Below, one piece after another: positions 8,094-51,625 of a stretch of 64,000 bases of DNA (position 1 is the stretch's first letter; the number at the start of each line of letters is the position of its first letter). Origin of the DNA: Escherichia coli (GTDB taxonomy: Bacteria > Pseudomonadota > Gammaproteobacteria > Enterobacterales > Enterobacteriaceae); assembly GCF_001677475.2 (NCBI RefSeq), contig NZ_CP015229.1; one strand, written 5' to 3'. Position numbers and translations under genes: made by a program. The notes below the pieces were generated by a model. The model saw nothing but the letters and a program-made list of their open reading frames with translations. It made no database searches and was not told the DNA's origin.

Positions 8094-8101
8094 CGTGTCG
8101 C

Positions 8102-8133: not shown

Positions 8134-8193
8134 AAGTCGATACGACCTGTGCTATGATTCATAAATCACAACAATAACAACAGACTGAATCGA

Positions 8194-9716: not shown

Positions 9717-9759
9717 CGTCCTGATGCTGGACGTTCTAATTTTTAGCATGTGATACCTA

Positions 9760-9793
9760 AACCGCAACGCTGATACAGGTTGCGGTTTTTTTA
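9760..9793 (+). terminator. Rho-independent terminator downstream of paaY
   Basis: Stem AACCGCAAC/GTTGCGGTT followed by T7 run. Confidence 0.7.
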
Positions 9794-9947
9794 TTGCCGA
9801 ATGCGGCGCTTTACGCGTTTTGTTTTGGTGTCTTTCAGGACAATAGAGCAACTCATCCAGTAATCTTGTTTACGCCTTCGCATTATTTATCTCTTTTCGT
9901 TTCTATACTGATTTTTCTCAATCCGTTTTATTACAGGGCAGGGTGCG

Positions 9948-10808
9948 ATGAGCAGCAATACATTTACTCTCGGTACTAAATCCGTTAACCGTCTTGGTTA
10001 TGGCGCGATGCAACTGGCAGGTCCTGGGGTTTTTGGCCCCCCAAGAGATCGCCACGTCGCTATAACCGTGCTGCGTGAGGCGCTGGCATTGGGCGTCAAT
10101 CACATTGATACCAGCGACTTTTATGGTCCGCACGTCACCAATCAGATTATCCGCGAAGCGCTTTATCCTTACTCTGACGACCTGACAATTGTCACTAAAA
10201 TTGGTGCGCGGCGTGGAGAGGACGCTTCCTGGTTGCCCGCCTTTTCTCCGTCAGAGCTGCAAAAAGCGGTGCACGATAATCTACGTAATCTCGGGCTGGA
10301 CGTACTGGATGTGGTTAACTTGCGCATTATGATGGGGGATGGTCATGGCCCAGCGGAAGGCTCGATTGAGGCCAGCCTGACCGTGCTGGCAGAGATGCAA
10401 CAACAAGGCCTGGTAAAACATATTGGCCTGAGCAACGTCACACCGACGCAGGTTGCAGAGGCGCGCAAGATTGCCGAAATTGTCTGTGTGCAAAACGAAT
10501 ACAACATCGCGCACCGTGCTGATGATGCAATGATTGATGCTTTGGCCCACGATGGCATTGCCTACGTGCCGTTCTTCCCGCTCGGGGGCTTTACACCGCT
10601 GCAATCCTCTACGCTGTCGGATGTTGCTGCGAGCCTGGGTGCAACACCCATGCAGGTGGCGCTGGCGTGGCTGTTACAACGTTCACCGAATATTTTGCTG
10701 ATCCCAGGGACGTCTTCTGTTGCTCATTTACGGGAGAATATGGCTGCTGAAAAATTGCATCTTTCTGAGGAAGTGTTGTCTACGTTGGATGGTATTTCGC
10801 GAGAATAA
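9948..10808 (+). CDS. ydbC: Aldo-keto reductase family oxidoreductase
   Basis: Track ORF, 286 aa; AKR-type sequence (IDTSDFYGP); matches remembered YdbC. Confidence 0.85.
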   Translation: MSSNTFTLGTKSVNRLGYGAMQLAGPGVFGPPRDRHVAITVLREALALGVNHIDTSDFYGPHVTNQIIREALYPYSDDLTIVTKIGARRGEDASWLPAFSPSELQKAVHDNLRNLGLDVLDVVNLRIMMGDGHGPAEGSIEASLTVLAEMQQQGLVKHIGLSNVTPTQVAEARKIAEIVCVQNEYNIAHRADDAMIDALAHDGIAYVPFFPLGGFTPLQSSTLSDVAASLGATPMQVALAWLLQRSPNILLIPGTSSVAHLRENMAAEKLHLSEEVLSTLDGISRE

Positions 10809-10870
10809 CGAATATACAAAAGGGAAAGATGCATTTCCCTTTTTTTCTTTTTTAATGGCATGGAGTGCAT

Positions 10871-13177: not shown

Positions 13178-13346
13178 TCCACAACGTAATATTTCTTAAC
13201 TATTTGATTAATTGGGATAATCATTCCTGACAGTGAGTCCCCAATACCTTGATATATTCTGAATTTTTAATGAAGCGGCGTGTTGCGATATCTCCGTCAG
13301 GGGAATTGATGCACCATAACGCAAACCGAATTATCAAGGATTGATA

Positions 13347-13952
13347 ATGACGCTCTACCAGATAAAACCGCTCTTTCAGTCGCTGTTAAGGCCGACGATG
13401 TTTTGGCTTTATAAGCACCACGTTACAGCGAATCACATCACTCTTGCTGCACTGGCGCTTTCTCTTCTTACCGGTTTGCTGTTGATGTTGGTGTCACAAC
13501 CCATCCTCTTTATGCTATTGCCCATCGTGCTTTTTGTCCGTATGGCGCTTAACGCGCTGGATGGTATGCTTGCGCGTGAGTGCAATCAGCAAACACGGCT
13601 TGGGGCAATTTTGAATGAGACTGGCGATGTTATTTCCGATATTGCTCTCTATTTACCGTTTTTATTTTTACCGGAAAGTAACGCATCACTCGTGATACTC
13701 ATGTTATTTTGCACCATATTGACCGAGTTTTGCGGTTTACTCGTGCAGACGATTAACGGTGTTCGCAATTATGCCGGTCCATTTGGCAAAAGCGATCGCG
13801 CGTTAATATTTGGTCTGTGGGGGCTAGCCGTTGCCATTTATCCACAGTGGATGCAATGGAATAATCTTTTATGGAGCATTGCTTCAATTCTGCTTCTCTG
13901 GACTGCGATTAATCGTTGTCGGAGTGTGCTCCTGATGAGCGCTGAAAGATAA
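13347..13952 (+). CDS. ynbA: CDP-alcohol phosphatidyltransferase family membrane protein
   Basis: Track ORF 13341..13952; CAPT-like motif DGMLAR...G...D...D; multiple TM segments. Confidence 0.85.
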   Translation: MTLYQIKPLFQSLLRPTMFWLYKHHVTANHITLAALALSLLTGLLLMLVSQPILFMLLPIVLFVRMALNALDGMLARECNQQTRLGAILNETGDVISDIALYLPFLFLPESNASLVILMLFCTILTEFCGLLVQTINGVRNYAGPFGKSDRALIFGLWGLAVAIYPQWMQWNNLLWSIASILLLWTAINRCRSVLLMSAER

Positions 13953-14848
13953 TGCTGGAAAAATCTCTGGCAACACTTTTCGCGTTGTTAATTTTAGCAA
14001 CGCTGATAAACCGTTTTCTGGTATGGCGGTTACCGGAGAGAAAAGAGGATGAAGTTACATTACGTATTCGTACCTGGTGGGGCATCGTCATTTGTTTTTC
14101 ACTGGTGATTTCAGGTCCACGCTGGATGACGTTGACGTTTTTTACGCTGATAAGTTTTCTGGCATTGAAAGAATATTGTACGCTTATATCCGTACATTTT
14201 CCGCGTTGGTTATATTGGGTTATTCCTCTTAACTATTTGCTTATCGGTTTTAATTGCTTTGAGCTGTTTCTGTTATTTATACCTTTGACTGGGTTTCTGA
14301 TATTAGCCACCTGGCGAGTTTTTGTGGGTGACCCCTCCGGTTTTCTGCATACCGTGAGCGCCATTTTTTGGGGCTGGATAATGACCGTTTTTGCCTTGAG
14401 TCATGCCGCCTGGCTATTAATGTTGCCAACCATAAATATCCAGGGCGGGGCGTTACTGGTGTTATTTCTTTTGGCGTTAACCGAGTCAAACGATATTGCA
14501 CAGTATTTATGGGGGAAATCCTGCGGCAGAAGAAAAGTGGTCCCCAAAGTCAGCCCAGGAAAAACGCTGGAAGGTCTGGTGGGGGGCGTAATCACCACCA
14601 TGATTGCGTCACTGATTATTGGACCGTTGCTGACACCGCTAAATACATTACAGGCATTATTAGCGGGTTTGTTAATTGGTATTAGTGGTTTTTGCGGCGA
14701 TGTAGTGATGTCAGCCATCAAACGAGATATTGGTGTTAAAGATAGTGGAAAACTATTACCAGGACATGGCGGACTCCTTGACAGGATTGACTCATTAATT
14801 TTCACCGCTCCGGTATTTTTTTATTTTATTCGCTACTGCTGTTACTGA
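13952..14848 (+). CDS. ynbB: Phosphatidate cytidylyltransferase (CdsA)-like membrane protein
   Basis: Track ORF, 298 aa; C-terminal CDS signature SAIKRDIGVKDSGKLLPGHGGLLDRIDS; start overlaps ynbA stop. Confidence 0.85.
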   Translation: MLEKSLATLFALLILATLINRFLVWRLPERKEDEVTLRIRTWWGIVICFSLVISGPRWMTLTFFTLISFLALKEYCTLISVHFPRWLYWVIPLNYLLIGFNCFELFLLFIPLTGFLILATWRVFVGDPSGFLHTVSAIFWGWIMTVFALSHAAWLLMLPTINIQGGALLVLFLLALTESNDIAQYLWGKSCGRRKVVPKVSPGKTLEGLVGGVITTMIASLIIGPLLTPLNTLQALLAGLLIGISGFCGDVVMSAIKRDIGVKDSGKLLPGHGGLLDRIDSLIFTAPVFFYFIRYCCY

Positions 14849-14863
14849 AGGAAAATAGAGAAA

Positions 14864-17927
<3,064 letters not shown>

Positions 17928-17977
17928 GTGGATTGAGATGTGGACTGAACTACAGTCCACATCAAGATCGTATCCGG

Positions 17978-18592
<615 letters not shown>

Positions 18593-18783
18593 TTATAGAT
18601 GTTTGAATGGGCGATGCCCCGTTGCTTGTTGACACTTTATTCACAATCCTGCCACAGAGATAGCGCAATAAATCGAAGCCTATGTTCGAATTTATTGAAC
18701 AACGCATAGAAAGCCGCGATGTGGTACTCTATATCTATCATTTAAAAGAAAATTAATCAGGCAGACTACTGCCCACTAACGTT

Positions 18784-21700
18784 ATGACAGAACAACAAAA
18801 ATTGACCTTTACTGCTTTGCAACAGCGGCTGGATTCGCTGATGCTGCGCGACAGACTGCGTTTTTCTCGCCGTCTGCACGGTGTTAAGAAGGTTAAAAAT
18901 CCTGATGCACAACAGGCCATTTTCCAGGAAATGGCGAAAGAGATTGACCAGGCGGCAGGGAAAGTCCTGCTGCGTGAAGCGGCACGACCGGAAATCACTT
19001 ATCCGGACAATTTGCCAGTTAGTCAGAAAAAGCAGGACATACTCGAAGCGATTCGCGATCACCAGGTGGTGATCGTCGCCGGGGAAACGGGTTCTGGTAA
19101 AACGACTCAGTTACCGAAAATCTGTATGGAGCTGGGGCGCGGGATTAAAGGGCTGATCGGCCATACCCAGCCGCGTCGCCTGGCGGCAAGAACGGTGGCG
19201 AACCGTATTGCGGAAGAGCTGAAAACGGAGCCGGGCGGTTGCATCGGTTACAAAGTGCGTTTCAACGATCACGTAAGTGATAACACGATGGTCAAGCTGA
19301 TGACCGACGGTATCCTGTTGGCGGAGATCCAACAAGACCGCCTGCTAATGCAGTACGACACCATCATTATTGACGAGGCGCACGAACGCAGCCTGAATAT
19401 CGATTTTCTGCTCGGCTATTTGAAAGAGTTGCTGCCGCGGCGTCCTGACCTAAAAATCATTATCACTTCCGCGACTATCGACCCGGAACGCTTTTCGCGC
19501 CACTTTAATAATGCGCCGATTATTGAAGTCTCCGGTCGGACTTATCCGGTGGAAGTGCGCTATCGCCCGATAGTTGAAGATGCGGATGACACTGAGCGCG
19601 ACCAGTTGCAGGCGATTTTTGACGCCGTGGATGAACTGGGGCGTGAAAGTGCCGGCGACATTCTGATCTTTATGAGCGGCGAGCGGGAAATTCGCGATAC
19701 CGCCGATGCGCTGAACAAGCTGAATCTGCGTCATACGGAAATTTTACCGCTTTATGCGCGGCTTTCGAATAGCGAACAGAACCGCGTGTTCCAGTCGCAC
19801 AGCGGACGGCGTATTGTGCTGGCGACCAACGTCGCGGAAACCTCGCTGACCGTACCGGGGATTAAATACGTTATCGACCCCGGTACGGCGCGTATCAGCC
19901 GCTACAGCTATCGCACCAAAGTGCAGCGTTTGCCGATTGAACCCATTTCACAGGCGTCTGCCAATCAGCGTAAAGGCCGTTGTGGTCGTGTGTCCGAAGG
20001 GATCTGTATTCGTCTCTATTCCGAAGACGATTTCCTCTCGCGCCCGGAGTTTACCGATCCAGAGATTCTGCGTACCAACCTGGCCTCGGTTATTTTGCAG
20101 ATGACCGCGCTGGGGCTGGGCGATATCGCTGCGTTCCCGTTTGTCGAAGCACCGGATAAACGCAATATCCAGGATGGCGTGCGTCTGCTCGAAGAGCTGG
20201 GCGCGATCACCACTGATGAACAGGCCAGCGCCTATAAACTGACGCCGCTCGGTCGTCAGCTCTCGCAGTTGCCTGTCGACCCACGTCTGGCGCGTATGGT
20301 GCTGGAAGCGCAAAAACATGGCTGCGTGCGTGAGGCGATGATTATCACGTCCGCGCTCTCCATTCAGGATCCGCGCGAACGTCCGATGGACAAACAGCAG
20401 GCATCGGACGAAAAACATCGTCGCTTCCACGACAAAGAGTCTGACTTCCTGGCGTTTGTGAATCTGTGGAATTATCTTGGCGAGCAGCAAAAGGCGCTTT
20501 CTTCAAACGCCTTCCGTCGCCTGTGTCGTACCGATTATCTCAACTATCTGCGTGTGCGCGAATGGCAGGATATCTACACCCAGTTGCGTCAGGTGGTGAA
20601 AGAACTTGGCATTCCGGTCAACAGCGAACCGGCGGAGTATCGCGAAATTCACATCGCCTTACTGACCGGTTTGCTTTCCCATATCGGCATGAAAGATGCC
20701 GATAAACAGGAATATACCGGTGCACGTAACGCGCGTTTCTCCATCTTCCCCGGTTCTGGTTTATTCAAAAAGCCGCCGAAATGGGTAATGGTGGCGGAAT
20801 TGGTAGAAACCAGCCGCCTGTGGGGGCGCATTGCTGCGCGTATCGATCCAGAATGGGTGGAACCCGTTGCGCAGCATTTGATTAAACGCACCTACAGCGA
20901 ACCGCACTGGGAACGGGCGCAGGGCGCGGTGATGGCAACGGAAAAAGTCACTGTGTATGGATTGCCGATTGTTGCCGCGCGCAAGGTCAACTACAGCCAG
21001 ATTGATCCGGCGTTATGTCGTGAACTCTTTATTCGCCACGCGCTGGTGGAAGGTGACTGGCAGACGCGTCACGCATTCTTCCGTGAAAACCTGAAACTGC
21101 GGGCCGAAGTGGAAGAACTGGAACACAAATCACGTCGCCGCGATATTCTGGTTGATGACGAAACGTTGTTTGAGTTTTATGACCAGCGCATCAGCCACGA
21201 TGTAATCTCCGCTCGTCACTTCGACAGCTGGTGGAAAAAAGTCAGCCGCGAAACGCCTGATTTGCTGAACTTTGAAAAGAGCATGTTGATCAAAGAAGGG
21301 GCGGAAAAAATCAGCAAGCTGGATTACCCGAACTTCTGGCATCAGGGCAATCTCAAGCTGCGTTTGAGCTATCAGTTTGAGCCCGGCGCGGATGCTGACG
21401 GTGTGACGGTACATATCCCGCTGCCGTTACTTAATCAGGTTGAGGAGAGTGGGTTTGAGTGGCAGATCCCCGGCCTGCGCCGCGAACTGATCATCGCGCT
21501 GATTAAATCGTTGCCGAAACCGGTACGGCGTAATTTTGTACCCGCGCCAAACTACGCCGAAGCGTTCTTAGGCCGCGTCACGCCACTGGAGCTGCCGTTG
21601 CTCGACAGCCTTGAGCGCGAGCTACGTAGGATGACCGGCGTTACCGTTGACCGCGAGGACTGGCACTGGGATCAGGTGCCCGATCACCTGAAAATCACCT

Positions 21701-27166: not shown

Positions 27167-27231
27167 AAAGAAAACGCCTGTACTAAAACCGACCCGTGGT
27201 ACAGGCGAAGAATACGGGCCTACATCGGAAG
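27167..27231 (-). ncRNA. rydC: Small regulatory RNA RydC
   Basis: Minus-strand sequence CTTCCGATGTAGGCCCGTATTCTTCGCCTGTACCACGGGTCGGTTTTAGTACAGGCGTTTTCTTT matches remembered RydC; in the cybB-ydcA intergenic region; terminator hairpin plus U-tract. Confidence 0.75.
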
Positions 27232-27646: not shown

Positions 27647-27843
<197 letters not shown>

Positions 27844-27854
<11 letters not shown>

Positions 27855-27900
27855 TCGTTGGCCTCGGTTGATAGAAATATCGGTCGGGGCCTTCGTCTTT
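27844..27900 (+). ncRNA. sokB: Predicted SokB antisense RNA (antitoxin of hokB); boundaries approximate
   Basis: Plus-strand promoter-like TTGCCG (27808-27813), 17-bp spacer, TAAGAT (27831-27836) inside mokB, transcribing antisense across the mokB start; imperfect hairpin then U-rich tract near 27859-27900. Confidence 0.4.
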
Positions 27901-28128
27901 CTGATTCCCGGTTAGCCTGAAAACAGAAAGTCTCAGGCACCCGTGAGCATCCTATGTGGTTTCCTTAGGGACGAAAATAATCACCTGACGAAATTGCGTG
28001 CTGTTTTCCAGAATTTTTCGTTATTCGGTTTAGCCAGTTTAATCATTCGTTACTCTCTTCATTCCAATGGCATTAATCTTCTCTGCAATAATTGTTGTAA
28101 AAATGTGACGCAAAGAGGTTTTTGGTCG

Positions 28129-43042: not shown

Positions 43043-43263
43043 CCCGCCACCTTTTTCTCACCTTTTGCCGCTATGATGCCGATCGTTTCTTGAGGTTCTT
43101 ATTCAGTTTTGCAAATTAGCGCAAAGAAATTCTGGAATCTTCCTTCCTGATTTTGCATTGCATTCTGCCGTTGCGGCGATTAAGTGCTATTTTCGAGCAA
43201 ATTACACACGGAGGTAAACACTAATGTTTACTTTGTTGATATACTCAGCGGCAGGGAGGCGAT

Positions 43264-43440
43264 GTGAAACAAAGCGAGTTCAGACGTTGGCTCGAATCTC
43301 AGGGCGTCGATGTAGCGAATGGCAGCAACCATTTAAAACTAAGGTTTCACGGGAGGCGCAGTGTCATGCCGCGTCACCCCAGCGAAGAGATTAAAGAATC
43401 ATTGCGTCAAGCCATTCTGAAACTACTCAGTTTGAGTTAA
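43264..43440 (+). CDS. hicA: Type II toxin HicA (mRNA interferase), 58 aa
   Basis: Not in ORF track; GTG start 43264, hand-translated (M)KQSEFRRWLESQGVDVANGSNHLKLRFHGRRSVMPRHPSEEIKESLRQAILKLLSLS. Confidence 0.8.
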   Translation: MKQSEFRRWLESQGVDVANGSNHLKLRFHGRRSVMPRHPSEEIKESLRQAILKLLSLS

Positions 43441-43464
43441 TCGCCCATTAAAAAGGTTAATGAC

Positions 43465-43902
<438 letters not shown>

Positions 43903-43980
43903 TAACAGTTAATGAAAAGTTGTCATTTTTAACAACTGATATAGACTGCCGAATCACCTGCACATAATAACGATTCGATA

Positions 43981-45387
43981 ATGAAAAAATACCAGCAGCT
44001 TGCAGAACAATTACGCGAGCAGATTGCGTCGGGTATCTGGCAACCCGGCGATCGTTTGCCTTCGTTGCGTGACCAGGTGGCGCTTTCTGGCATGAGCTTT
44101 ATGACTGTCAGCCATGCCTATCAGTTGCTCGAAAGTCAGGGATATATTATCGCGCGACCGCAGTCGGGTTATTACGTTGCGCCACAGGCAATAAAAATGC
44201 CGAAAGCGCCAGTCATTCCAGTCACTCGAGATGAAGCAGTCGATATCAACACCTATATTTTTGATATGTTGCAGGCCAGTCGCGATCCGTCGGTCGTTCC
44301 GTTTGCCTCGGCCTTTCCCGACCCGCGACTTTTCCCCCTCCAACAACTCAACCGCTCGCTGGCGCAGGTAAGCAAAACCGCCACGGCGATGAGCGTGATT
44401 GAAAATTTACCGCCAGGAAACGCAGAACTGCGTCAGGCTATTGCTCGTCGCTATGCCTTACAGGGCATCACTATTTCTCCTGATGAAATTGTCATTACCG
44501 CCGGGGCGTTAGAGGCATTAAACCTCAGTTTACAAGCGGTAACGGAACCAGGCGATTGGGTGATAGTAGAGAATCCTTGTTTCTACGGCGCGTTGCAGGC
44601 GCTGGAGCGGTTACGGCTGAAGGCGTTATCGGTGGCGACGGACGTTAACGAAGGGATTGATCTCAAGGCGCTGGAACTGGCGTTGCAGGAGTATCCGGTG
44701 AAAGCGTGCTGGCTGATGACTAATAGCCAGAATCCACTCGGATTTACCTTGACGCCGCAGAAAAAAGCGAGGCTGGTAGCGTTGCTCAATCAGTACAACG
44801 TAACGCTGATTGAAGATGATGTTTACAGCGAACTTTATTTTGGACGGGAAAAACCGCTGCCTGCGAAAGCGTGGGATCGCCACGATGGCGTTTTGCATTG
44901 CTCTTCGTTTTCGAAATGTCTGGTGCCTGGTTTTCGTATTGGTTGGGTCGCCGCCGGAAAACATGCACGTAAAATTCAACGCTTGCAGTTGATGAGTACG
45001 CTTTCCACCAGCTCACCGATGCAGCTTGCGCTGGTGGATTACCTTTCCACGCGCCGATACGACGCCCATCTTCGTCGCCTGCGTCGCCAGCTTGCGGAAC
45101 GTAAACAACGTGCCTGGCAGGCACTGCTGCGTTATCTGCCTGCGGAAGTTAAAATTCATCATAATGACAGCGGTTATTTTCTCTGGCTGGAGCTCCCCGA
45201 GCCGTTAGATGCCGGCGAATTAAGCCTGGCGGCACTGACGCATCATATCAGTATTGCGCCGGGTAAAATGTTTTCTACCGGTGAAAACTGGTCACGTTTT
45301 TTTCGTTTTAATACCGCGTGGCAGTGGGGAGAACGTGAAGAACAGGCGGTAAAACAATTAGGCAAACTTATTCAAGAACGGCTGTAA
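43981..45387 (+). CDS. ydcR: MocR-type regulator (GntR HTH fused to PLP-aminotransferase-like domain)
   Basis: Track ORF, 468 aa; N-terminal HTH then aminotransferase fold. Confidence 0.85.
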   Translation: MKKYQQLAEQLREQIASGIWQPGDRLPSLRDQVALSGMSFMTVSHAYQLLESQGYIIARPQSGYYVAPQAIKMPKAPVIPVTRDEAVDINTYIFDMLQASRDPSVVPFASAFPDPRLFPLQQLNRSLAQVSKTATAMSVIENLPPGNAELRQAIARRYALQGITISPDEIVITAGALEALNLSLQAVTEPGDWVIVENPCFYGALQALERLRLKALSVATDVNEGIDLKALELALQEYPVKACWLMTNSQNPLGFTLTPQKKARLVALLNQYNVTLIEDDVYSELYFGREKPLPAKAWDRHDGVLHCSSFSKCLVPGFRIGWVAAGKHARKIQRLQLMSTLSTSSPMQLALVDYLSTRRYDAHLRRLRRQLAERKQRAWQALLRYLPAEVKIHHNDSGYFLWLELPEPLDAGELSLAALTHHISIAPGKMFSTGENWSRFFRFNTAWQWGEREEQAVKQLGKLIQERL

Positions 45388-45631
45388 TAGCGTTTAATTT
45401 AATTCCTCTTAGATTAGGTAATATGAATTTCGAATAGCAGTCATATTTCCTAACTCCTTGTCTATACTCCAGAAGATAACCTTACAGACGGCATAATGCG
45501 CGGTAGCTCACAACCTGATTAAATTTTCTCAGGGGCGAAGGTGTGCCTGCTAGCCGCCGTCTATGGTTAAACAAGGAGATATTTTTACGGCACGGCGGCT
45601 GAACAATTAATTACGACAGGAGTAAGACTTT

Positions 45632-46777
45632 ATGAGCAAGACATTTGCCCGCAGCAGCCTGTGTGCGCTCACCATGACAATAATGACCGCTCACGCCGCC
45701 GAACCGCCTACCAATTTAGATAAACCGGAAGGGCGACTGGATATTATCGCCTGGCCGGGATACATCGAACGCGGACAAACTGATAAACAATACGACTGGG
45801 TAACGCAGTTCGAAAAAGAGACAGGCTGCGCGGTGAATGTTAAAACCGCCGCGACTTCCGATGAAATGGTCAGTCTGATGGCCAAAGGGGGTTACGATCT
45901 GGTTACGGCATCCGGCGATGCCTCGCTGCGTTTGATTATGGGCAAACGCGTGCAGCCGATTAATACCGCCTTGATTCCCAACTGGAAAACGCTCGATCCG
46001 CGCGTGGTTAAAGGCGACTGGTTTAACGTTGGCGGCAAAGTTTACGGCACACCTTACCAATGGGGGCCGAACCTGCTGATGTACAACACTAAAACCTTCC
46101 CGACGCCGCCGGATAGCTGGCAAGTGGTTTTTGTTGAGCAAAATCTGCAGGACGGCAAGAGCAATAAAGGCCGCGTTCAGGCTTATGATGGCCCTATCTA
46201 CATTGCGGACGCTGCGTTGTTCGTTAAAGCCACTCAGCCGCAGTTGGGCATCAGCGATCCGTATCAACTCACCGAAGAACAGTATCAGGCGGTGCTGAAA
46301 GTGCTGCGCGATCAACATAGTTTGATCCATCGCTACTGGCATGACACTACCGTGCAAATGAGCGATTTCAAAAACGAGGGTGTGGTCGCTTCCAGTGCCT
46401 GGCCCTATCAGGCCAACGCCTTGAAAGCCGAAGGTCAGCCTGTCGCTACCGTTTTCCCGAAGGAGGGCGTTACCGGTTGGGCTGACACCACTATGCTACA
46501 TAGCGAAGCGAAACATCCGATTTGCGCCTACAAATGGATGAACTGGTCATTAACGCCAAAAGTGCAGGGCGATGTGGCGGCCTGGTTTGGTTCGTTACCA
46601 GTCGTGCCGGAAGGGTGTAAAGCCAGTTCGTTATTAGGCGAGAAAGGTTGTGAAACAAACGGTTTTAACTATTTCGATAAAATAGCCTTCTGGAAAACGC
46701 CTATAGCAGAAGGGGGCAAGTTTGTTCCCTACAGTCGCTGGACGCAGGATTACATTGCCATTATGGGCGGTCGCTAA
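45632..46777 (+). CDS. ydcS: ABC transporter periplasmic substrate-binding protein (polyamine-type)
   Basis: Track ORF, 381 aa; signal peptide; first gene of ydcSTUV. Confidence 0.85.
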   Translation: MSKTFARSSLCALTMTIMTAHAAEPPTNLDKPEGRLDIIAWPGYIERGQTDKQYDWVTQFEKETGCAVNVKTAATSDEMVSLMAKGGYDLVTASGDASLRLIMGKRVQPINTALIPNWKTLDPRVVKGDWFNVGGKVYGTPYQWGPNLLMYNTKTFPTPPDSWQVVFVEQNLQDGKSNKGRVQAYDGPIYIADAALFVKATQPQLGISDPYQLTEEQYQAVLKVLRDQHSLIHRYWHDTTVQMSDFKNEGVVASSAWPYQANALKAEGQPVATVFPKEGVTGWADTTMLHSEAKHPICAYKWMNWSLTPKVQGDVAAWFGSLPVVPEGCKASSLLGEKGCETNGFNYFDKIAFWKTPIAEGGKFVPYSRWTQDYIAIMGGR

Positions 46778-46794
46778 CTTCGCTGGGGTGCTTT

Positions 46795-47808
46795 ATGACG
46801 TACGCAGTGGAGTTTGACAACGTCTCGCGGTTGTACGGTGACGTGCGCGCAGTAGATGGCGTCAGTATTGCGATAAAAGATGGTGAGTTCTTCTCTATGC
46901 TGGGGCCGTCCGGCTCCGGCAAAACCACCTGCCTGCGCCTGATTGCTGGATTCGAACAGCTTTCCGGCGGGGCTATCTCTATCTTTGGTAAACCCGCCAG
47001 CAATCTGCCACCGTGGGAGCGGGATGTTAATACCGTTTTCCAGGACTATGCGCTGTTTCCCCATATGTCGATTCTCGATAACGTGGCCTACGGGTTAATG
47101 GTCAAAGGTGTGGAGAAAAAAAAGCGTTACATCATGGCGCAAGAGGCGCTGGAAAAAGTGGCGCTGGGTTTTGTTCAGCAACGTAAACCGTCACAACTTT
47201 CTGGTGGTCAGCGCCAGCGGGTTGCTATCGCCAGAGCATTAGTAAATGAACCGCGCGTATTATTGCTGGATGAACCACTCGGCGCGCTGGATCTCAAGTT
47301 GCGTGAGCAGATGCAGCTGGAACTGAAAAAGCTGCAACAGTCTCTCGGTATCACTTTTATCTTCGTTACCCACGATCAGGGCGAAGCGTTATCGATGTCC
47401 AATCGTGTGGCGGTTTTCAATAATGGACGCATTGAGCAGGTCGATTCCCCGCGCGATCTCTATATGCGCCCGCGCACGCCGTTTGTTGCCGGGTTCGTTG
47501 GTACATCGAATGTTTTTGATGGACTGATGGCAGAGAAACTTTGTGGCATGACGGGAAGCTTCGCCCTGCGACCGGAACATATCCGCCTCAACACCCCTGG
47601 TGAACTGCAGGCCAATGGCACGATCCAGGCGGTGCAATATCAGGGCGCGGCGACCCGTTTTGAACTGACACTGAGCGGCGGTGAAAAACTGCTGGTTAGT
47701 CAGGCCAATATGACGGGGGAAGAACTCCCCGCTACGCTTACTCCAGGGCAACAAGTGATGGTTTCCTGGGCGCGCGATGTGATGGTGCCACTGGTTGAGG
47801 AGAGGTGA
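46795..47808 (+). CDS. ydcT: ABC transporter ATP-binding protein
   Basis: Track ORF, 337 aa; Walker A GPSGSGKTT, signature LSGGQRQR, Walker B LLLDEP. Confidence 0.9.
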   Translation: MTYAVEFDNVSRLYGDVRAVDGVSIAIKDGEFFSMLGPSGSGKTTCLRLIAGFEQLSGGAISIFGKPASNLPPWERDVNTVFQDYALFPHMSILDNVAYGLMVKGVEKKKRYIMAQEALEKVALGFVQQRKPSQLSGGQRQRVAIARALVNEPRVLLLDEPLGALDLKLREQMQLELKKLQQSLGITFIFVTHDQGEALSMSNRVAVFNNGRIEQVDSPRDLYMRPRTPFVAGFVGTSNVFDGLMAEKLCGMTGSFALRPEHIRLNTPGELQANGTIQAVQYQGAATRFELTLSGGEKLLVSQANMTGEELPATLTPGQQVMVSWARDVMVPLVEER

Positions 47809-48750
47809 ATGGCGATGAACGTATTGCAATCACCTTCACGTCCGGGTGTTGGGAAAATATCAGGTTTTTTCTGGCGGAATCCGGGGCTGGGGCTGTTTTT
47901 GCTGCTGCTTGGCCCGCTAATGTGGTTTGGCATTGTCTATTTCGGCTCGCTGCTGACACTGTTATGGCAGGGATTTTATACCTTTGACGATTTCACCATG
48001 TCGGTAACGCCGGAACTGACGCTGGCGAATATCCGTGCGCTGTTTAATCCGGCGAATTACGACATCATTCTCCGCACGCTGACTATGGCTGTGGCAGTCA
48101 CTATCGCCAGCGCCATTCTGGCTTTTCCAATGGCGTGGTATATGGCGCGCTATACCAGCGGGAAAATGAAAGCGTTTTTTTATATTGCGGTAATGTTGCC
48201 GATGTGGGCGAGCTACATTGTTAAAGCCTATGCCTGGACGTTATTGCTGGCAAAAGATGGCGTGGCTCAGTGGTTTTTACAACATCTTGGGCTGGAACCA
48301 CTGCTGACTGCGTTCCTTACATTACCTGCGGTGGGCGGCAATACGCTGTCAACTTCCGGGCTGGGGCGCTTTCTGGTGTTTCTCTATATCTGGCTGCCGT
48401 TCATGATCCTGCCCGTGCAGGCGGCGCTTGAGCGTTTGCCGCCGTCATTGTTGCAGGCGTCAGCTGATCTCGGCGCACGTCCACGACAAACCTTTCGCTA
48501 TGTGGTGCTGCCGCTGGCGATCCCGGGTATTGCCGCTGGCTCTATCTTTACCTTCTCACTCACACTGGGCGATTTTATCGTCCCGCAGCTGGTTGGCCCG
48601 CCAGGATATTTTATCGGCAATATGGTTTATTCCCAGCAGGGGGCGATTGGCAATATGCCGATGGCGGCGGCATTCACCCTGGTGCCGATTGTTCTCATCG
48701 CACTGTACCTGGCGTTCGTGAAACGTCTGGGAGCGTTCGATGCACTCTGA
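47809..48750 (+). CDS. ydcU: ABC transporter permease
   Basis: Track ORF, 313 aa; hydrophobic; starts immediately after ydcT stop. Confidence 0.85.
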
Positions 48751-49534
48751 ACGCGCACCGTTTTTCCTCAAACTGGCGGCCTGGGGCGGCGTTGTTTTCC
48801 TACATTTTCCCATCCTGATAATCGCCGCCTATGCGTTTAACACTGAAGATGCGGCGTTTAGTTTTCCACCGCAGGGCCTGACGCTGCGCTGGTTTAGCGT
48901 GGCAGCACAGCGTAGTGATATTCTTGATGCCGTGACACTGTCACTTAAAGTGGCGGCGCTGGCGACATTAATGGCGCTGGTGTTAGGGACGCTGGCAGCT
49001 GCCGCGCTGTGGCGACGAGACTTTTTCGGCAAAAACGCCATTTCGCTGTTACTGCTGCTGCCCATTGCGCTGCCGGGCATTGTCACTGGTCTGGCGTTAT
49101 TAACCGCCTTTAAAACCATCAATCTGGAGCCGGGATTTTTCACCATCGTGGTCGGTCATGCGACTTTTTGTGTAGTTGTGGTGTTTAACAATGTCATCGC
49201 CCGTTTTCGCCGCACCTCGTGGAGTCTGGTTGAGGCGTCAATGGATCTTGGGGCCAATGGCTGGCAAACCTTCCGCTACGTAGTGTTGCCGAATCTTAGT
49301 TCGGCGTTACTGGCAGGAGGAATGCTGGCGTTTGCCTTGTCGTTCGATGAAATCATCGTTACGACTTTTACGGCAGGTCATGAACGAACGTTACCGTTGT
49401 GGTTGCTCAATCAGCTTGGGCGACCGCGTGATGTACCGGTAACCAACGTGGTGGCACTGCTGGTTATGTTGGTAACAACCTTGCCGATCCTGGGGGCCTG
49501 GTGGCTAACCCGCGAAGGCGACAATGGTCAATAA
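48740..49534 (+). CDS. ydcV: ABC transporter permease
   Basis: Track ORF, 264 aa; overlaps ydcU 3' end. Confidence 0.85.
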
Positions 49535-49555
49535 CCACTGATACAGGAATATGCT

Positions 49556-50980
49556 ATGCAACATAAGTTACTGATTAACGGAGAACTGGTCAGCGGCGAA
49601 GGGGAAAAACAGCCTGTCTATAATCCGGCAACGGGGGACGTTTTACTGGAGATTGCCGAGGCATCCGCAGAGCAGGTCGATGCTGCTGTGCGCGCGGCAG
49701 ATGCAGCATTTGCCGAATGGGGGCAAACCACGCCGAAAGTGCGTGCGGAATGCCTGCTGAAACTGGCTGATGTTATCGAAGAAAATGGTCAGGTTTTTGC
49801 CGAACTGGAGTCCCGTAATTGTGGCAAACCGCTGCATAGTGCGTTCAATGATGAAATTCCGGCGATTGTCGATGTCTTTCGCTTTTTCGCCGGAGCAGCT
49901 CGCTGCCTGCATGGTCTGGCGGCAGGTGAATATCTTGAAGGTCATACTTCGATGATCCGTCGCGATCCGTTGGGGGTCGTGGCTTCTATCGCACCGTGGA
50001 ATTATCCGCTGATGATGGCTGCGTGGAAACTGGCTCCGGCGCTGGCGGCAGGGAACTGCGTAGTGCTCAAACCATCAGAAATTACCCCGCTGACCGCGTT
50101 GAAGTTGGCAGAGCTGGCGAAAGATATCTTCCCGGCAGGCGTGATTAACGTACTGTTTGGCAGAGGCAAAACGGTGGGAGATCCGCTGACCGGACATCCC
50201 AAAGTGCGGATGGTGTCGCTGACGGGCTCTATCGCCACTGGCGAGCACATCATCAGCCATACCGCGCCGTCCATAAAGCGTACTCATATGGAACTTGGAG
50301 GCAAAGCGCCAGTGATAGTTTTTGATGATGCGGATATTGAAGCGGTGGTCGAAGGTGTACGTACTTTTGGCTATTACAATGCCGGACAGGATTGTACAGC
50401 GGCTTGTCGGATCTATGCGCAAAAAGCCATTTACGATACGCTGGTGGAAAAACTTGGTGCTGCAGTGGCAACGTTAAAATCGGGTGCACCGGATGACGAG
50501 TCTACGGAGCTTGGACCTTTAAGCTCGCTGGCGCATCTCGAACGCGTCAGCAAAGCGGTAGAAGAGGCGAAAGCGACAGGGCACATCAAAGTGATCACTG
50601 GCGGTGAAAAGCGCAAGGGTAATGGCTATTACTATGCGCCGACGCTACTGGCTGGCGCATTACAGGACGATGCCATCGTGCAAAAAGAGGTATTTGGTCC
50701 GGTAGTGAGTGTTACCCTCTTCGACAACGAAGAACAGGTGGTGAACTGGGCAAATGACAGCCAGTACGGACTTGCATCCTCGGTATGGACGAAAGATGTG
50801 GGCAGGGCGCATCGCGTCAGCTCGCGGCTGCAATATGGTTGTACCTGGGTCAATACCCATTTCATGCTGGTAAGTGAAATGCCGCACGGTGGGCAGAAAC
50901 TTTCTGGTTACGGCAAGGATATGTCACTTTATGGGCTGGAGGATTACACCGTCGTCCGCCACGTCATGGTTAAACATTAA
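49556..50980 (+). CDS. patD: Gamma-aminobutyraldehyde dehydrogenase (ALDH family)
   Basis: Track ORF, 474 aa; ALDH motifs ELGGKAP and catalytic Cys region. Confidence 0.9.
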
Positions 50981-51019
50981 GGATAATATTGCAGATCGTA
51001 AGAGTATGAGAAGATCTTG

Positions 51020-51054
51020 CGTACTGTCAGAGAGTTGATTTCTCTGACAGTACG
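51020..51054. terminator. Large hairpin between convergent patD and yncL (14-bp perfect stem)
   Basis: CGTACTGTCAGAGA / TCTCTGACAGTACG with 7-nt loop. Confidence 0.5.
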
Positions 51055-51076
51055 TGTTGCGTGCAAAATCACTACA

Positions 51077-51172
51077 TCAAATAAACCAGCCAAATCTCAT
51101 AGAGATAAGAGTAAACAAACCAACAGCAGCAAAGACATTTATCAGTACTACAGTTCTACTGGAAACATTCAT
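51077..51172 (-). CDS. yncL: Small membrane protein YncL (31 aa)
   Basis: Not in ORF track; hand-translated minus strand MNVSSRTVVLINVFAAVGLFTLISMRFGWFI. Confidence 0.7.
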   Translation of the reverse strand: MNVSSRTVVLINVFAAVGLFTLISMRFGWFI

Positions 51173-51366
51173 TTTTGCCACCTTTTATCATTGCCCCTAT
51201 GTGTATAGTACGGGTTAAGAAAATCCGCAATAATACTCATTCTGAAGATGGATAAGGGCAAGTTGCTGTTTGATGATTTTTTCTCAAACCGGTTAAAAAA
51301 CTTGATGTACATCAAAAAATGACGCATATTTGCGCGCGTTTTATTCATCTGGCTGGACGCCCGTAC

Positions 51367-51540
51367 ATGTCTTTCTATCAACACATGCTTGTTTTTTATG
51401 CGGTTATGGCAGCAATCGCATTTCTTATCACCTGGTTTCTTTCTCACGATAAGAAACGCATCCGTTTCTTAAGCGCCTTTCTGGTGGGGGCAACATGGCC
51501 GATGAGTTTCCCGGTGGCGCTGTTGTTTTCACTGTTTTAA
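51367..51540 (+). CDS. ortT: Orphan membrane toxin OrtT (YdcX), 57 aa
   Basis: In-frame within track ORF 51319..51540; start at ATG 51367 (MSFYQHMLVFYAVMAAIAFLITWFL...). Confidence 0.8.
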   Translation: MSFYQHMLVFYAVMAAIAFLITWFLSHDKKRIRFLSAFLVGATWPMSFPVALLFSLF

Positions 51541-51625
51541 ATCTTATGCATTGGCTTGACGGCACCACGCAGACTTATATCATTTGGATGAATCGATAAA
51601 TTTCACAAGTGGCTAAGGAGAAAGT

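What the first reader, a model, noticed from the sequence alone, without database searches (positions are those of the whole stretch)
43981..50980. ydcR-ydcSTUV-patD module
A MocR-type regulator with a PLP-binding sensor domain, a complete ABC importer with a polyamine-type binding protein, and an aminoaldehyde dehydrogenase are arranged co-directionally. This looks like one regulon for uptake and oxidation of an amine-derived substrate; the importer's ligand and the regulator's effector are, to my knowledge, unsettled.
Basis: partly seen in the sequence, partly recalled or inferred. Interest (0 to 1): 0.3.

Follow-up and report, generated by a model that had tools for sequence, protein, structure and literature searches.

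The report
Known E. coli ydcR, ydcSTUV-patD locus
These six genes are the already annotated E. coli ydcR and ydcSTUV-patD genes; the transporter and the aldehyde dehydrogenase form one tightly conserved operon, the neighbouring regulator appears to be a separate unit, and what the transporter carries is still unknown.

Summary
Six intact, co-directional genes sit exactly at 43981-50980 and are orthologues of E. coli K-12 ydcR, ydcS, ydcT, ydcU, ydcV and patD. The locus is present in 5415 of 5426 complete E. coli genomes.

The "one regulon" reading is only partly supported.
- **Transporter and dehydrogenase belong together.** patD follows ydcV in 72 of 72 species loci with enough sequence.
- **ydcR is a lineage-specific neighbour.** It lies upstream only in Enterobacteriaceae. 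In 41 other species that position holds a LysR regulator plus a second aminobutyraldehyde-dehydrogenase paralogue.
- **ydcR outlives the transporter.** It persists in Salmonella, C. koseri and Shimwellia, which lack ydcSTUV.
- **ydcR has its own conserved operator,** ATAACAG-N27-CTGATAT, which is absent from the ydcS promoter region.
- **ydcS has its own promoter.** The spacer carries conserved sigma-S-type -10 elements matching a published sigma-S ChIP peak and transcription start. The literature reports Nac and RpoS control.

The cargo remains unsettled. YdcS lacks three of the four acidic residues that PotF uses to hold putrescine. In Serratia and some Pseudomonas the operon is followed by a Tat-signal spermidine dehydrogenase. 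I therefore favour, with low confidence, import of an omega-aminoaldehyde or its cyclic imine rather than putrescine.

This is a known locus of modest interest.

The parts
43902..43942 (+). Candidate YdcR operator: ATAACAG-N27-CTGATAT, an inverted pair that overlaps the ydcR promoter-like site at 43920-43947 (TTGTCA-16-TAGACT)
   Evidence: It is the only match in the 64-kb window, with 0.01 expected by chance. Both half-sites are exact at a fixed 34-nt start-to-start spacing upstream of ydcR in 10 of 14 genera, with a further variant-spaced pair in Pseudescherichia; these include Salmonella and Shimwellia, which lack ydcSTUV. The same half-site is repeated upstream of K-12 ylaC. Its identity as the YdcR site is inferred.
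43981..45387 (+). ydcR: MocR-type regulator with an N-terminal GntR wHTH and an aminotransferase-like PLP domain; SFSK motif with K312
   Evidence: PF00392 and PF00155 are recorded on 98-99% identical proteins. The protein aligns to GabR (PDB 4n0b) from residue 4 and to LysN (2egy) through the SFSK lysine motif.
45414..45453 (.). AT-rich palindrome TTAGGTAATATGA-N14-TCATATTTCCTAA in the ydcR-ydcS spacer; function unknown (a possible activator site, and not a G+C-rich terminator)
   Evidence: It overlaps the moderately conserved block TCATAGGAAAT.TG.ATA in alignment A2.
45459..45468 (+). Distal sigma-S/sigma-70-like extended -10 element, TGTCTATACT
   Evidence: The block CTAACTCCTTGTCTATACTCCA is nearly invariant in 12 Enterobacteriaceae genera. 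It is kept in C. koseri and lost in Salmonella. Promoter function is inferred.
45497..45512 (.). CRP-like bipartite site TGCGC-N6-TCACA, centred roughly 70 nt upstream of the mapped ydcS transcription start
   Evidence: The two half-sites are at least 90% conserved while the 6-nt spacer varies (A2). The site is retained in Salmonella and C. koseri, where the promoter now drives patD alone (A7). Assignment to CRP is an inference from the consensus TGTGA-N6-TCACA.
45557..45571 (+). Proximal sigma-S-type -10 region CCGTCTATGGTTAAA, with the transcription start about 45574-45578
   Evidence: The block is conserved in all 13 aligned sequences, one of them the window (12 other Enterobacteriaceae genera), and in Salmonella and C. 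koseri. A published sigma-S ChIP-seq peak and TSS at 1509623 for ydcS in K-12 map about 55 nt upstream of the ATG. That mapping uses the K-12 coordinates and assumes the roughly 1976-bp offset between the U00096.2 and U00096.3 genome versions.
45575..45602 (+). Conserved leader block GGAGATATTTTTACGGCACGGCGGCTGA; function unresolved
   Evidence: It is invariant or nearly so across genera. There is no covariation for an RNA structure. The sigma-54-like GG-N10-GC spacing holds in other genera but not in Escherichia.
45632..46777 (+). ydcS: periplasmic substrate-binding protein with a signal peptide ending AHA/AEPP
   Evidence: It passes NF041888 at 812.7 bits. PDB 6nlp is a near-identical sequence covering residues 23-381.
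46795..47808 (+). ydcT: ABC ATPase with Walker A at 37-44, LSGGQ at 135 and Walker B at 155-160
47809..48750 (+). ydcU: ABC permease, PotB/PotH-like
   Evidence: 120 bits to PotB, below the cut-off of 348. It starts the base after the ydcT stop.
48740..49534 (+). ydcV: ABC permease, PotC/PotI-like; overlaps ydcU by 11 nt
49556..50980 (+). patD: NAD-dependent gamma-aminobutyraldehyde dehydrogenase with ELGG at 246-249 (Glu246), GQDC at 277-280 (Cys280) and no signal peptide
   Evidence: It passes TIGR03374 at 1034 bits against a cut-off of 909.
51020..51054 (.). Perfect 14-bp inverted repeat CGTACTGTCAGAGA/TCTCTGACAGTACG between the convergent genes patD and yncL; probable bidirectional terminator marking the end of the operon
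   Evidence: The yncL position comes from the annotation of L001.

Best explanation
The stretch holds two functional units, not one.

**Unit 1: ydcR.** It encodes a MocR-type, probably PLP-binding, transcription factor. It has its own promoter and a conserved repeat pair over that promoter, so it is likely autoregulated. Its conserved targets lie elsewhere in the genome.

**Unit 2: the five-gene operon ydcS-ydcT-ydcU-ydcV-patD.**
- It is transcribed from sigma-S-type promoter(s) inside the 244-nt spacer.
- It is switched on in stationary phase and nitrogen limitation (RpoS and Nac, with a probable CRP site).
- It ends at a 14-bp hairpin after patD.

**Proposed mechanism.** Periplasmic YdcS captures a small amine and YdcTUV imports it at the cost of ATP. 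Cytoplasmic PatD then oxidises an omega-aminoaldehyde to the omega-amino acid (GABA or 5-aminovalerate), which feeds GabT/GabD.

**Cargo (inferred, about 0.35-0.4 on its own).** I think the cargo is not putrescine. I favour a singly charged species at the aldehyde oxidation level: 4-aminobutanal in equilibrium with 1-pyrroline, and its C3 and C5 homologues. In relatives these are produced in the periplasm by the Tat-exported spermidine dehydrogenase encoded next to the operon. In E. coli they would be scavenged from the environment.

**Shown:** gene content, conservation of the operon, its own promoter region, and the independence of ydcR.

**Inferred:** the identity of the operator, the CRP site, and the cargo.
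For: **Operon unity**
- Junctions are 17 nt, 0 nt, an 11-nt overlap and 21 nt.
- ydcS-T-U-V-patD is contiguous in 72 of 72 species loci, from Enterobacteriaceae to Pseudomonas.
- There is a hairpin after patD.

**Own promoter**
- The spacer has conserved blocks with no RNA covariation.
- A sigma-S ChIP peak and TSS are published for ydcS.
- ydcST is 125- and 22-fold RpoS-dependent in EDL933.
- PydcS is used as an RpoS reporter.
- ydcSTUVW and patD are listed as Nac-controlled.
- The promoter is kept and fused to patD in Salmonella and C. koseri after loss of ydcSTUV.

**ydcR independence**
- It is adjacent in 32 loci (plus 4 with a 1.2-3.3 kb insertion) out of 80. It never co-occurs with the LysR plus ALDH2 pair found in 41 loci.
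- It is retained without ydcSTUV.
- The box ATAACAG-N27-CTGATAT is conserved upstream of ydcR only, and a related repeat lies upstream of ylaC.
- Published regulon predictions give ylaC and cydAB-like genes, and srfN in Salmonella.

**Cargo**
- YdcS keeps the aromatic box and one aspartate: W41, Y44, W257, W283 and D285.
- It replaces PotF D39, E185 and D247 with G43, Y190 and Q260.
- Its PotF and PotD equivalog scores are 64 and 46 bits against cut-offs of 636 and 582.
- In 41 species, two aminobutyraldehyde-dehydrogenase-family genes flank the transporter, with no aminotransferase in the core.
- A full-length SpdH homologue (PDB 7d9f, E 5.7e-244) with a twin-arginine signal follows patD in 5 Serratia and 4 Pseudomonas species, immediately downstream in 8 of the 9 (about 2.2 kb away in L073). 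Serratia also has a secreted cytochrome c next to it.
- SpdH makes 4-aminobutanal and 3-aminopropanal (review text).
- PuuP, not YdcSTUV, is described as the transporter needed for putrescine use.
Against: - No transport or binding experiment for YdcS was found.
- The pocket comparison is by sequence alignment at 23% identity, not by structure. D96, at the PotF S87 position, could supply a second acidic anchor, so a short diamine such as 1,3-diaminopropane or putrescine is not excluded.
- 1-pyrroline is small and probably membrane-permeant, which weakens the need for an ABC importer.
- No binding protein for an aldehyde or cyclic imine is known to me.
- spdH is adjacent in only 9 of 80 species, and E. 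coli has no spdH to my knowledge.
- No G+C-rich terminator separates ydcR from ydcS in this window, so some read-through from ydcR is possible.
- The YdcR operator is predicted, not demonstrated. A different, weaker YdcR site at ydcS cannot be ruled out.
- The TSS mapping relies on an assumed coordinate offset between genome versions.
Confidence: 0.5

Rival explanations
1. YdcR senses an amine or amino acid through its PLP domain and directly controls the adjacent ydcSTUV-patD genes, so all six genes form one regulon for uptake and oxidation of one substrate.
For: - The genes are co-directional and adjacent in 32 Enterobacteriaceae species.
- ydcR stays next to patD even after ydcSTUV is lost in Salmonella and C. 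koseri.
- No strong terminator follows ydcR.
- Characterised MocR regulators such as GabR control neighbouring amine-catabolic genes.
Against: - In 41 species a LysR regulator, not ydcR, accompanies the operon. ydcR and LysR plus ALDH2 never co-occur.
- Shimwellia has ydcR with neither ydcSTUV nor patD.
- The conserved ydcR-upstream box has no conserved copy before ydcS: 1 one-mismatch half-site against 2.4 expected.
- The published YdcR regulog contains ylaC and cydAB-like genes, not ydcS or patD.
- The Salmonella target found by proteomics is srfN.
- Known control of ydcS is by RpoS and Nac.
Confidence: 0.12
2. The operon architecture is as in the best explanation, but the cargo is a classical diamine (putrescine, cadaverine or 1,3-diaminopropane). 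The unlinked aminotransferase PatA makes the aminoaldehyde that PatD oxidises.
For: - YdcS, YdcT, YdcU and YdcV have PotF/PotD, PotA, PotB and PotC as their closest characterised relatives.
- The aromatic box and one aspartate of the polyamine pocket are kept, and D96 may add a second acidic group.
- patA and patD are co-induced by NtrC and Nac.
- PatA and PatD together convert putrescine and cadaverine.
- Several papers list YdcSTUV as a putrescine importer.
- 1,3-diaminopropane is the other product of SpdH.
Against: - Three of the four acidic anchors of PotF are replaced by G, Y and Q, and these replacements are conserved in the six YdcS sequences aligned with PotF and PotD.
- Scores against the PotF and PotD models are about a tenth of the cut-offs.
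- No aminotransferase is found in the conserved core in any of 80 species, while 41 carry two aldehyde dehydrogenases.
- The 'putrescine importer' label traces to a database classification in the papers read.
- PuuP is described as the transporter required for putrescine use.
Confidence: 0.3
3. YdcS and YdcV have a function unrelated to small amines. YdcS would be a periplasmic poly-3-hydroxybutyrate synthase and/or a DNA-binding protein that hands double-stranded DNA to a YdcV channel during natural transformation on plates.
For: - K-12 annotation carries 'polyhydroxybutyrate synthase' for YdcS.
- A review reports 6.7- and 9.5-fold lower natural transformation in ydcS and ydcV mutants, and cites the PHB synthase report.
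Against: - The protein is a typical cluster-D binding protein with a closed-form crystal structure.
- It has 75-88% identity from E. coli to Pseudomonas and an invariant link to an aminoaldehyde dehydrogenase. None of this is expected for DNA uptake or polymer synthesis.
- The ydcT ATPase mutant has only a minor transformation defect, which argues against transport by the ABC system.
- The phenotypes could be indirect effects on the envelope or on polyamine status.
Confidence: 0.05

Closest known systems
E. coli K-12 ydcR (b1439) and ydcSTUV-patD (b1440-b1444)
   Same: Gene order, lengths and junctions are the same. Window proteins are 98-100% identical to those of a typical E. coli. The spacer is up to 99.2% identical to E. 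coli spacers.
   Different: Across the 7 kb, the nucleotide sequence is at most 97.6% identical to any of 5426 complete E. coli genomes. No difference in gene content was found.
PotFGHI (putrescine) and PotABCD (spermidine) ABC importers of E. coli
   Same: Both share the four-component type I ABC importer layout. YdcS belongs to the same binding-protein superfamily, with E about 1e-17 to PotF structures. The aromatic residues W41, Y44, W257 and W283 and the aspartate D285 are conserved.
   Different: Identity is 23-24%. All four proteins fall far below the curated Pot cut-offs. PotF D39, E185 and D247 (PotD E36 and E171) are replaced by G43, Y190 and Q260. There is a 7-residue insertion after the WxxY motif carrying the invariant E46-R47. 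A dehydrogenase gene is fused into the operon, which the pot operons lack.
Spermidine dehydrogenase pathway of Pseudomonas aeruginosa (SpdH plus KauB) and the Serratia spermidine dehydrogenase
   Same: In 5 Serratia and 4 Pseudomonas species the ydcSTUV-patD cluster is followed by a full-length SpdH homologue (814 bits to PDB 7d9f). It is flanked by two KauB/PatD-type aldehyde dehydrogenases, the enzyme class that oxidises the SpdH products.
   Different: The window and all Enterobacteriaceae loci examined lack spdH and the second dehydrogenase. No published link between SpdH and a YdcS-type importer was found in the papers I could search.
MocR regulators with adjacent targets (GabR-gabTD, PdxR-pdxST, TauR, EhuR)
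   Same: YdcR has the same two-domain build, a retained PLP lysine motif, and a bipartite repeat operator about three helical turns apart upstream of its own gene.
   Different: YdcR passes none of the curated MocR equivalog models; the best is PdxR at 268 bits against a cut-off of 320. Its predicted regulon (ylaC, cydAB-like, napH-like) is not the neighbouring operon. Its effector is unknown.

Membership tests
MocR subfamily of GntR regulators (YdcR) | N-terminal GntR-type winged helix-turn-helix domain | tested here: met
   MocR-like NCBIfam models align from residue 2-6. PF00392 is recorded on 98-99% identical proteins. The alignment to GabR (4n0b) starts at residue 4.
MocR subfamily of GntR regulators (YdcR) | C-terminal fold-type-I aminotransferase-like domain with the PLP-binding lysine | tested here: met
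   PF00155 is recorded. The match to 2-aminoadipate aminotransferase 2egy has E 5e-44, and the SFSK motif aligns, giving K312. PLP binding itself was not tested.
MocR subfamily of GntR regulators (YdcR) | Equivalence to a characterised member (PdxR, GabR, PtsJ, EhuR, MocR, YczR) | tested here: not met
   All scores are below the curated cut-offs: PdxR 268/320, YczR 241/487, EhuR 185/480, PtsJ 124/573, GabR 122/600.
Single YdcR regulon covering ydcSTUV-patD | Regulator and operon linked across taxa | tested here: not met
   ydcR is adjacent in 36 of 80 species, all of them Enterobacteriaceae. LysR plus ALDH2 occupies the position in 41. ydcR is present without ydcSTUV in Salmonella, C. koseri and Shimwellia.
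Single YdcR regulon covering ydcSTUV-patD | Shared operator motif upstream of the regulator gene and of the operon | tested here: not met
   ATAACAG-N27-CTGATAT occurs once in the window, upstream of ydcR. No conserved copy lies in the ydcR-ydcS spacer of 12 genera. That the motif is the YdcR site is itself inferred.
Single YdcR regulon covering ydcSTUV-patD | Expression of ydcS-patD depends on YdcR | not testable with these tools
   This needs ydcR-mutant transcriptomics or ChIP. The literature found reports RpoS and Nac dependence only.
PotD/PotF polyamine-binding proteins (YdcS) | Homology to PotF/PotD and a periplasmic location | tested here: met
   E 1e-16 to 1e-18 to PotF structures and 6e-10 to PotD. 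The signal peptide is MSKTFARSSLCALTMTIMTAHA, and the PDB construct starts at residue 23.
PotD/PotF polyamine-binding proteins (YdcS) | Passes the curated PotF or PotD family threshold | tested here: not met
   PotF 64 bits against a cut-off of 636; PotD 45.7 against 582. YdcS has its own equivalog model, NF041888.
PotD/PotF polyamine-binding proteins (YdcS) | Acidic residues that pair with each ammonium group of the polyamine (PotF D39, E185, D247, D278; residue list from my knowledge of the PotF and PotD structures) | tested here: not met
   G43, Y190 and Q260 replace three of them, and only D285 is kept. The replacements are conserved in the six YdcS sequences aligned. This is a sequence alignment only; D96 might compensate.
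PotD/PotF polyamine-binding proteins (YdcS) | Aromatic box around the aliphatic chain (PotF W37, Y40, W244, F276) | tested here: met
   W41, Y44, W257 and W283 align with these residues.
PotD/PotF polyamine-binding proteins (YdcS) | Binds putrescine or spermidine | not testable with these tools
   No binding data were found. PDB 6nlp is described only as a solute-binding family protein, and a modelling paper treats it as a closed form.
Type I ABC importer | ATPase with Walker A, signature and Walker B motifs, plus two permeases and a binding protein in one operon | tested here: met
   YdcT has GPSGSGKT at 37, LSGGQ at 135 and VLLLDE at 155. YdcU and YdcV match PotB/PotH and PotC/PotI models. 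Junctions are tight. My strict regular expression for the permease EAA loop found no match, so that motif was not confirmed.
Gamma-aminobutyraldehyde dehydrogenase (PatD, TIGR03374) | Passes the curated equivalog threshold and has the catalytic Glu and Cys | tested here: met
   1034.3 bits against a cut-off of 909.3 over residues 2-473. ELGG is at 246-249 (Glu246) and GQDC at 277-280 (Cys280).
Sigma-S-dependent promoter (ydcS) | A -10 region of the type (T/G)CTA(C/T)(A/G)CTTAA with C at -13, bound by sigma-S RNA polymerase | tested here: met
   TCTATGGTTAA at 45560-45570 matches 10 of 11 positions of the consensus as I recall it, and it is conserved. A sigma-S ChIP peak and TSS are published for K-12 ydcS. 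Activity in this strain was not tested.

The most novel reading that the evidence does not exclude
YdcSTUV may not be a polyamine importer at all. It may be the first ABC importer for omega-aminoaldehydes or their cyclic imines (4-aminobutanal/1-pyrroline, 3-aminopropanal, 5-aminopentanal/1-piperideine).

In the ancestral cluster (LysR, ALDH2, ydcSTUV, patD, spdH, cytochrome c), a Tat-exported spermidine dehydrogenase would cleave spermidine or spermine in the periplasm. YdcSTUV would carry the aldehyde products inward, and two cytoplasmic dehydrogenases would convert them to GABA and beta-alanine.

E. coli kept only the import and oxidation half. It placed that half under RpoS and Nac control to scavenge aminoaldehydes made by other organisms' amine oxidases.
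Probability: 0.3. Interest if true: 0.55.

Novelty: already known. Interest (0 to 1): 0.3.

Why it matters
The locus is annotated in essentially every E. coli genome, so the finding as written adds nothing new.

What the follow-up adds is practical.
- **Regulation.** ydcR should not be used as the presumed regulator of ydcSTUV-patD. The operon has its own conserved sigma-S/Nac-type control region, which is preserved even where only patD is left.
- **Cargo.** It gives a concrete, testable idea for one of the remaining orphan transporters of E. coli. The idea rests on the invariant link to an aminoaldehyde dehydrogenase, the loss of the diamine-binding acidic residues in YdcS, and the adjacency of a periplasmic spermidine dehydrogenase in Serratia and Pseudomonas.

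If that idea holds, it would change how polyamine scavenging in the gut and rhizosphere is drawn: periplasmic cleavage followed by import of the aldehyde. It would also explain why YdcSTUV does not substitute for PuuP in putrescine use.

Tried and rejected
1. **Regulatory RNA in the ydcS leader.** The Rfam gathering search of the whole window found only sok and RydC, far away. RNAalifold on 16 genera gave -5.9 kcal/mol with no compensatory pair. Rejected: the conservation is at the DNA-sequence level.
2. **Sigma-54 promoter in the conserved block cGGCACG-N4-ccGC.** The spacing fits in most genera, but Escherichia, including this window, has GA instead of GC at -12. Not adopted.
3. **NtrC site at AATGCGC...GGTCACA.** The half-site spacing is two bases short of TGCACC-N5-GGTGCA. 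A CRP-type reading fits better. Neither was tested.
4. **Generic promoter and terminator scan of 43200-51600.** It found 7 promoter-like sites against 8.9 expected, and 16 terminator-like sites against 9.8, none in the ydcR-ydcS spacer. Uninformative.
5. **The published YdcR motif.** The supplementary text of the MocR regulon paper lists regulon members but not site sequences, so I derived the box from my own alignment.
6. **Contexts of distant YdcS-like proteins (35-59% identity).** They lay on 2-10 kb metagenome contigs with no informative neighbours.
7. **Papers not held.** The Salmonella YdcR paper and the Schneider and Reitzer putrescine paper are not in the library.
8. **Structure prediction and fold search.** Not run, because a crystal structure of YdcS already exists and the tools return no coordinates for pocket inspection.

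Full report
**Observation**

| Gene | Coordinates | Length |
|---|---|---|
| ydcR | 43981-45387 | 468 aa |
| ydcS | 45632-46777 | 381 aa |
| ydcT | 46795-47808 | 337 aa |
| ydcU | 47809-48750 | 313 aa |
| ydcV | 48740-49534 | 264 aa |
| patD | 49556-50980 | 474 aa |

The 7-kb stretch is found in 5415 of 5426 complete E. coli genomes under these gene names. K-12 has the same layout.

- ORF 1 is MocR-like over its whole length but passes no curated equivalog.
- ORF 2 passes the YdcS model (812.7 bits against 725).
- ORFs 3-5 are PotA/B/C-like but below the Pot cut-offs.
- ORF 6 passes the aminobutyraldehyde dehydrogenase equivalog (1034 bits against 909).

Sequence motifs are intact. YdcT has Walker A, LSGGQ and Walker B. 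PatD has Glu246 and Cys280. YdcR has an SFSK lysine motif that aligns with the PLP lysine of an aminotransferase structure. YdcS has a signal peptide.

**One unit or two**

Inside ydcS-patD the junctions are 17 nt, 0 nt, an 11-nt overlap and 21 nt. ydcR and ydcS are 244 nt apart. A perfect 14-bp inverted repeat follows patD, in front of the convergent yncL gene.

I scanned one genome per species (GTDB representatives) with a YdcS alignment and kept 80 loci. The window's proteins were then placed on them with tblastn:
- patD follows ydcV in 72 of 72 loci that extend far enough. These run from Escherichia through Serratia, Rahnella, Lonsdalea and Hafnia to Pseudomonas.
- ydcR lies within 400 bp upstream in 32 loci, all of them Enterobacteriaceae.
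- ydcR is separated by 1.2-3.3 kb in four loci (Buttiauxella, Cedecea and one Enterobacter species).
- In 41 loci the upstream position is taken by a co-directional LysR-type regulator and a second dehydrogenase. That dehydrogenase is 60-63% identical to PatD and passes the aminobutyraldehyde dehydrogenase subfamily model.
- The two arrangements never co-occur.

Conversely, Salmonella and Citrobacter koseri have ydcR followed directly by a patD orthologue (83% and 88% identical), with ydcSTUV absent. Shimwellia has ydcR with neither.

**The spacer is a conserved promoter region**

An alignment of the ydcR-ydcS spacer from 13 genera shows sharply conserved blocks in an otherwise unalignable background. 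RNAalifold finds no compensatory changes, and Rfam has nothing there. So the blocks are read as DNA sites.

Two of them are sigma-S-type -10 regions:
- TGTCTATACT at 45459-45468
- TCTATGGTTAA at 45560-45570

A published sigma-S ChIP-seq study lists a peak and a transcription start for K-12 ydcS. That start maps about 55 nt upstream of the ATG, just downstream of the proximal element. The mapping uses the K-12 coordinates and my assumption about the offset between genome versions.

A further bipartite block, TGCGC-N6-TCACA at 45497-45512, has conserved halves and a variable spacer. It lies about 70 nt upstream of that start, which fits a CRP class I site. This is inference.

The literature I could read reports the following:
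- ydcST is strongly RpoS-dependent.
- The ydcS promoter is used as an RpoS reporter.
- ydcSTUVW and patD are Nac-controlled.

In C. koseri and Salmonella the deletion of ydcSTUV left this promoter region fused to patD. In C. koseri the fusion runs right up to the ribosome-binding site. This shows that the control region serves patD and is under selection on its own.

**ydcR has a different operator**

Upstream of ydcR there is a pair of half-sites, ATAACAG-N27-CTGATAT, at 43902-43942. It overlaps a promoter-like match. It is the only match in the 64-kb window, with 0.01 expected.

Both half-sites are exact, at the same 34-nt spacing, upstream of ydcR in 10 of 14 genera; Pseudescherichia has a pair at a different spacing. 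The ten include Salmonella and Shimwellia. The ylaC upstream region of K-12 carries CTGTTAT-N17-CTGTTAC, the same half-site.

The published comparative reconstruction of MocR regulons lists ylaC, and in other taxa cydAB-like and napH-like genes, as the YdcR regulon. It does not list ydcS or patD. A review reports that Salmonella YdcR directly activates srfN.

In the ydcR-ydcS spacers of 12 genera I found no conserved copy of the half-site. In the window there is one one-mismatch hit against 2.4 expected by chance.

I therefore read ydcR as a separate, probably autoregulated, unit. Its adjacency to ydcS looks like a feature of Enterobacteriaceae genome history, not evidence of shared control. 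Some read-through cannot be excluded, because no G+C-rich terminator follows ydcR in this window.

**What the transporter carries**

No binding or transport experiment was found. Papers call YdcSTUV a putrescine or polyamine importer by citing a classification database, or as 'putative'. Other proposals are a PHB synthase and a route for DNA uptake.

A crystal structure exists (PDB 6nlp), but I could not inspect it.

A MAFFT alignment of six YdcS sequences (the window plus five orthologues) with K-12 PotF and PotD shows this pattern. The residue roles come from my knowledge of the PotF and PotD structures.

| PotF residue | YdcS residue | Status |
|---|---|---|
| W37 | W41 | aromatic box, kept |
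| Y40 | Y44 | aromatic box, kept |
| W244 | W257 | aromatic box, kept |
| F276 | W283 | aromatic box, kept |
| D278 | D285 | acidic anchor, kept |
| D39 | G43 | acidic anchor, lost |
| E185 | Y190 | acidic anchor, lost |
| D247 | Q260 | acidic anchor, lost |

This argues for a ligand with one cationic group rather than a diamine or triamine. There are caveats: the alignment is at 23% identity, and D96 (at the PotF S87 position) might act as a second anchor.

Genomic context points the same way. The conserved core contains one or two aminobutyraldehyde-type dehydrogenases but never an aminotransferase or cytoplasmic oxidase.

In all five Serratia species and in four Pseudomonas species, patD is followed on the same strand by a 620-636-aa protein. 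It is immediately downstream in eight of the nine loci and about 2.2 kb away in L073.
- It has a twin-arginine signal (M.ITRRDFLNG).
- It is a full-length homologue of P. aeruginosa spermidine dehydrogenase SpdH (814 bits to PDB 7d9f).
- Serratia adds a secreted cytochrome c next to it.

SpdH cleaves spermidine to 1,3-diaminopropane plus 4-aminobutanal, and spermine to spermidine plus 3-aminopropanal.

A periplasmic enzyme that makes aminoaldehydes, two cytoplasmic NAD-dependent aminoaldehyde dehydrogenases and an importer between them suggest that the importer carries the aldehydes or their cyclic imines. This is my preferred reading, at roughly 0.35-0.4. A classical diamine cargo with PatA acting elsewhere is the main rival, at roughly 0.3. 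PatA and PatD do convert putrescine and cadaverine. PuuP is described as the transporter required for putrescine use.

**Comparison with known systems, and novelty**

The locus is the known K-12 locus b1439-b1444. It works like a Pot-type ABC importer with a catabolic enzyme attached. It fails the curated PotF, PotD, PotA, PotB and PotC thresholds and lacks the acidic-residue signature, so I do not file YdcS as a polyamine-binding protein in the strict sense. YdcR is a MocR-family member by architecture but is not equivalent to any characterised one. The finding itself is already known.

The parts that I did not find in the searchable literature are:
- the complementary distribution of ydcR and the LysR-plus-dehydrogenase pair
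- the spdH linkage
- the promoter retention after ydcSTUV loss
- the pocket differences

These are leads for experiments, not established facts.

**Other points**

The window is at most 97.6% identical to any complete E. coli genome, over this region and over its first 20 kb. It is 92% identical to the E69-type Escherichia representative and 88.7% to E. albertii. The spacer reaches 99.2% identity.

A conserved block at the start of the ydcS transcript (45575-45602) remains unexplained.

Noticed in passing
window 1-64000 (tested on 1-20000 and 43981-50980): The window is at most 97.6% identical to the best of 5426 complete E. coli genomes, although gene order and proteins are typical E. coli. 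It is 92% identical to the E69-type Escherichia species representative and 88.7% to E. albertii. The non-coding ydcR-ydcS spacer is more conserved (99.2%) than the flanking genes. The strain therefore belongs to a lineage not represented among complete genomes, or the sequence differs mostly at synonymous sites.
   Followed up: partly
window 27168-27231 (-) and 27791-27942 (-): Rfam gathering-level matches to the RydC sRNA (90.5 bits) and to a sok antitoxin RNA of a hok/sok-type locus (109.7 bits).
   Followed up: no
window 43465-43902 (+) and just upstream: A hicB antitoxin ORF lies immediately upstream of ydcR, and hicA is annotated before it in E. coli. This toxin-antitoxin pair is present in only some related genera, so the region between rlhA and ydcR is variable.
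   Followed up: partly
L038 7419-18622 (Serratia plymuthica); also L030, L032, L039, L041, L069, L073, L076, L077: An extended co-directional cluster: LysR regulator, second aminobutyraldehyde-type dehydrogenase, ydcSTUV, patD, a Tat-signal spermidine dehydrogenase homologue and, in Serratia, a secreted cytochrome c. NCBI names the SpdH homologue only 'NAD(P)/FAD-dependent oxidoreductase'.
   Followed up: yes
L082 8001-10985, L083 1130-4114 (Salmonella); L085 8001-11154 (C. koseri): ydcSTUV has been deleted, and the ydcS promoter and leader are fused to patD. In C. koseri the junction is at the start codon. In both species the srfABC virulence-associated genes lie just downstream of ortT.
   Followed up: yes
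window 45575-45602: A strongly conserved block at the 5' end of the ydcS transcript (GGAGATATTTTTACGGCACGGC...). It has no structural covariation and a sigma-54-like GG-N10-GC spacing that is broken in Escherichia. With the Shine-Dalgarno GGA it gives two GGA motifs that could be CsrA sites. Its function is unknown.
   Followed up: partly
L089 5290-5350 (- strand; K-12 ylaC upstream): A direct repeat CTGTTAT-N17-CTGTTAC lies upstream of ylaC. It shares the half-site of the ydcR-upstream box, consistent with the published prediction that ylaC is a YdcR target.
   Followed up: partly
L084 10078-17431 (Shimwellia): Here ydcR is followed by an autotransporter gene and a napF-napD-napA-type nitrate reductase cluster. 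NapH-like genes are predicted YdcR targets in other taxa.
   Followed up: no
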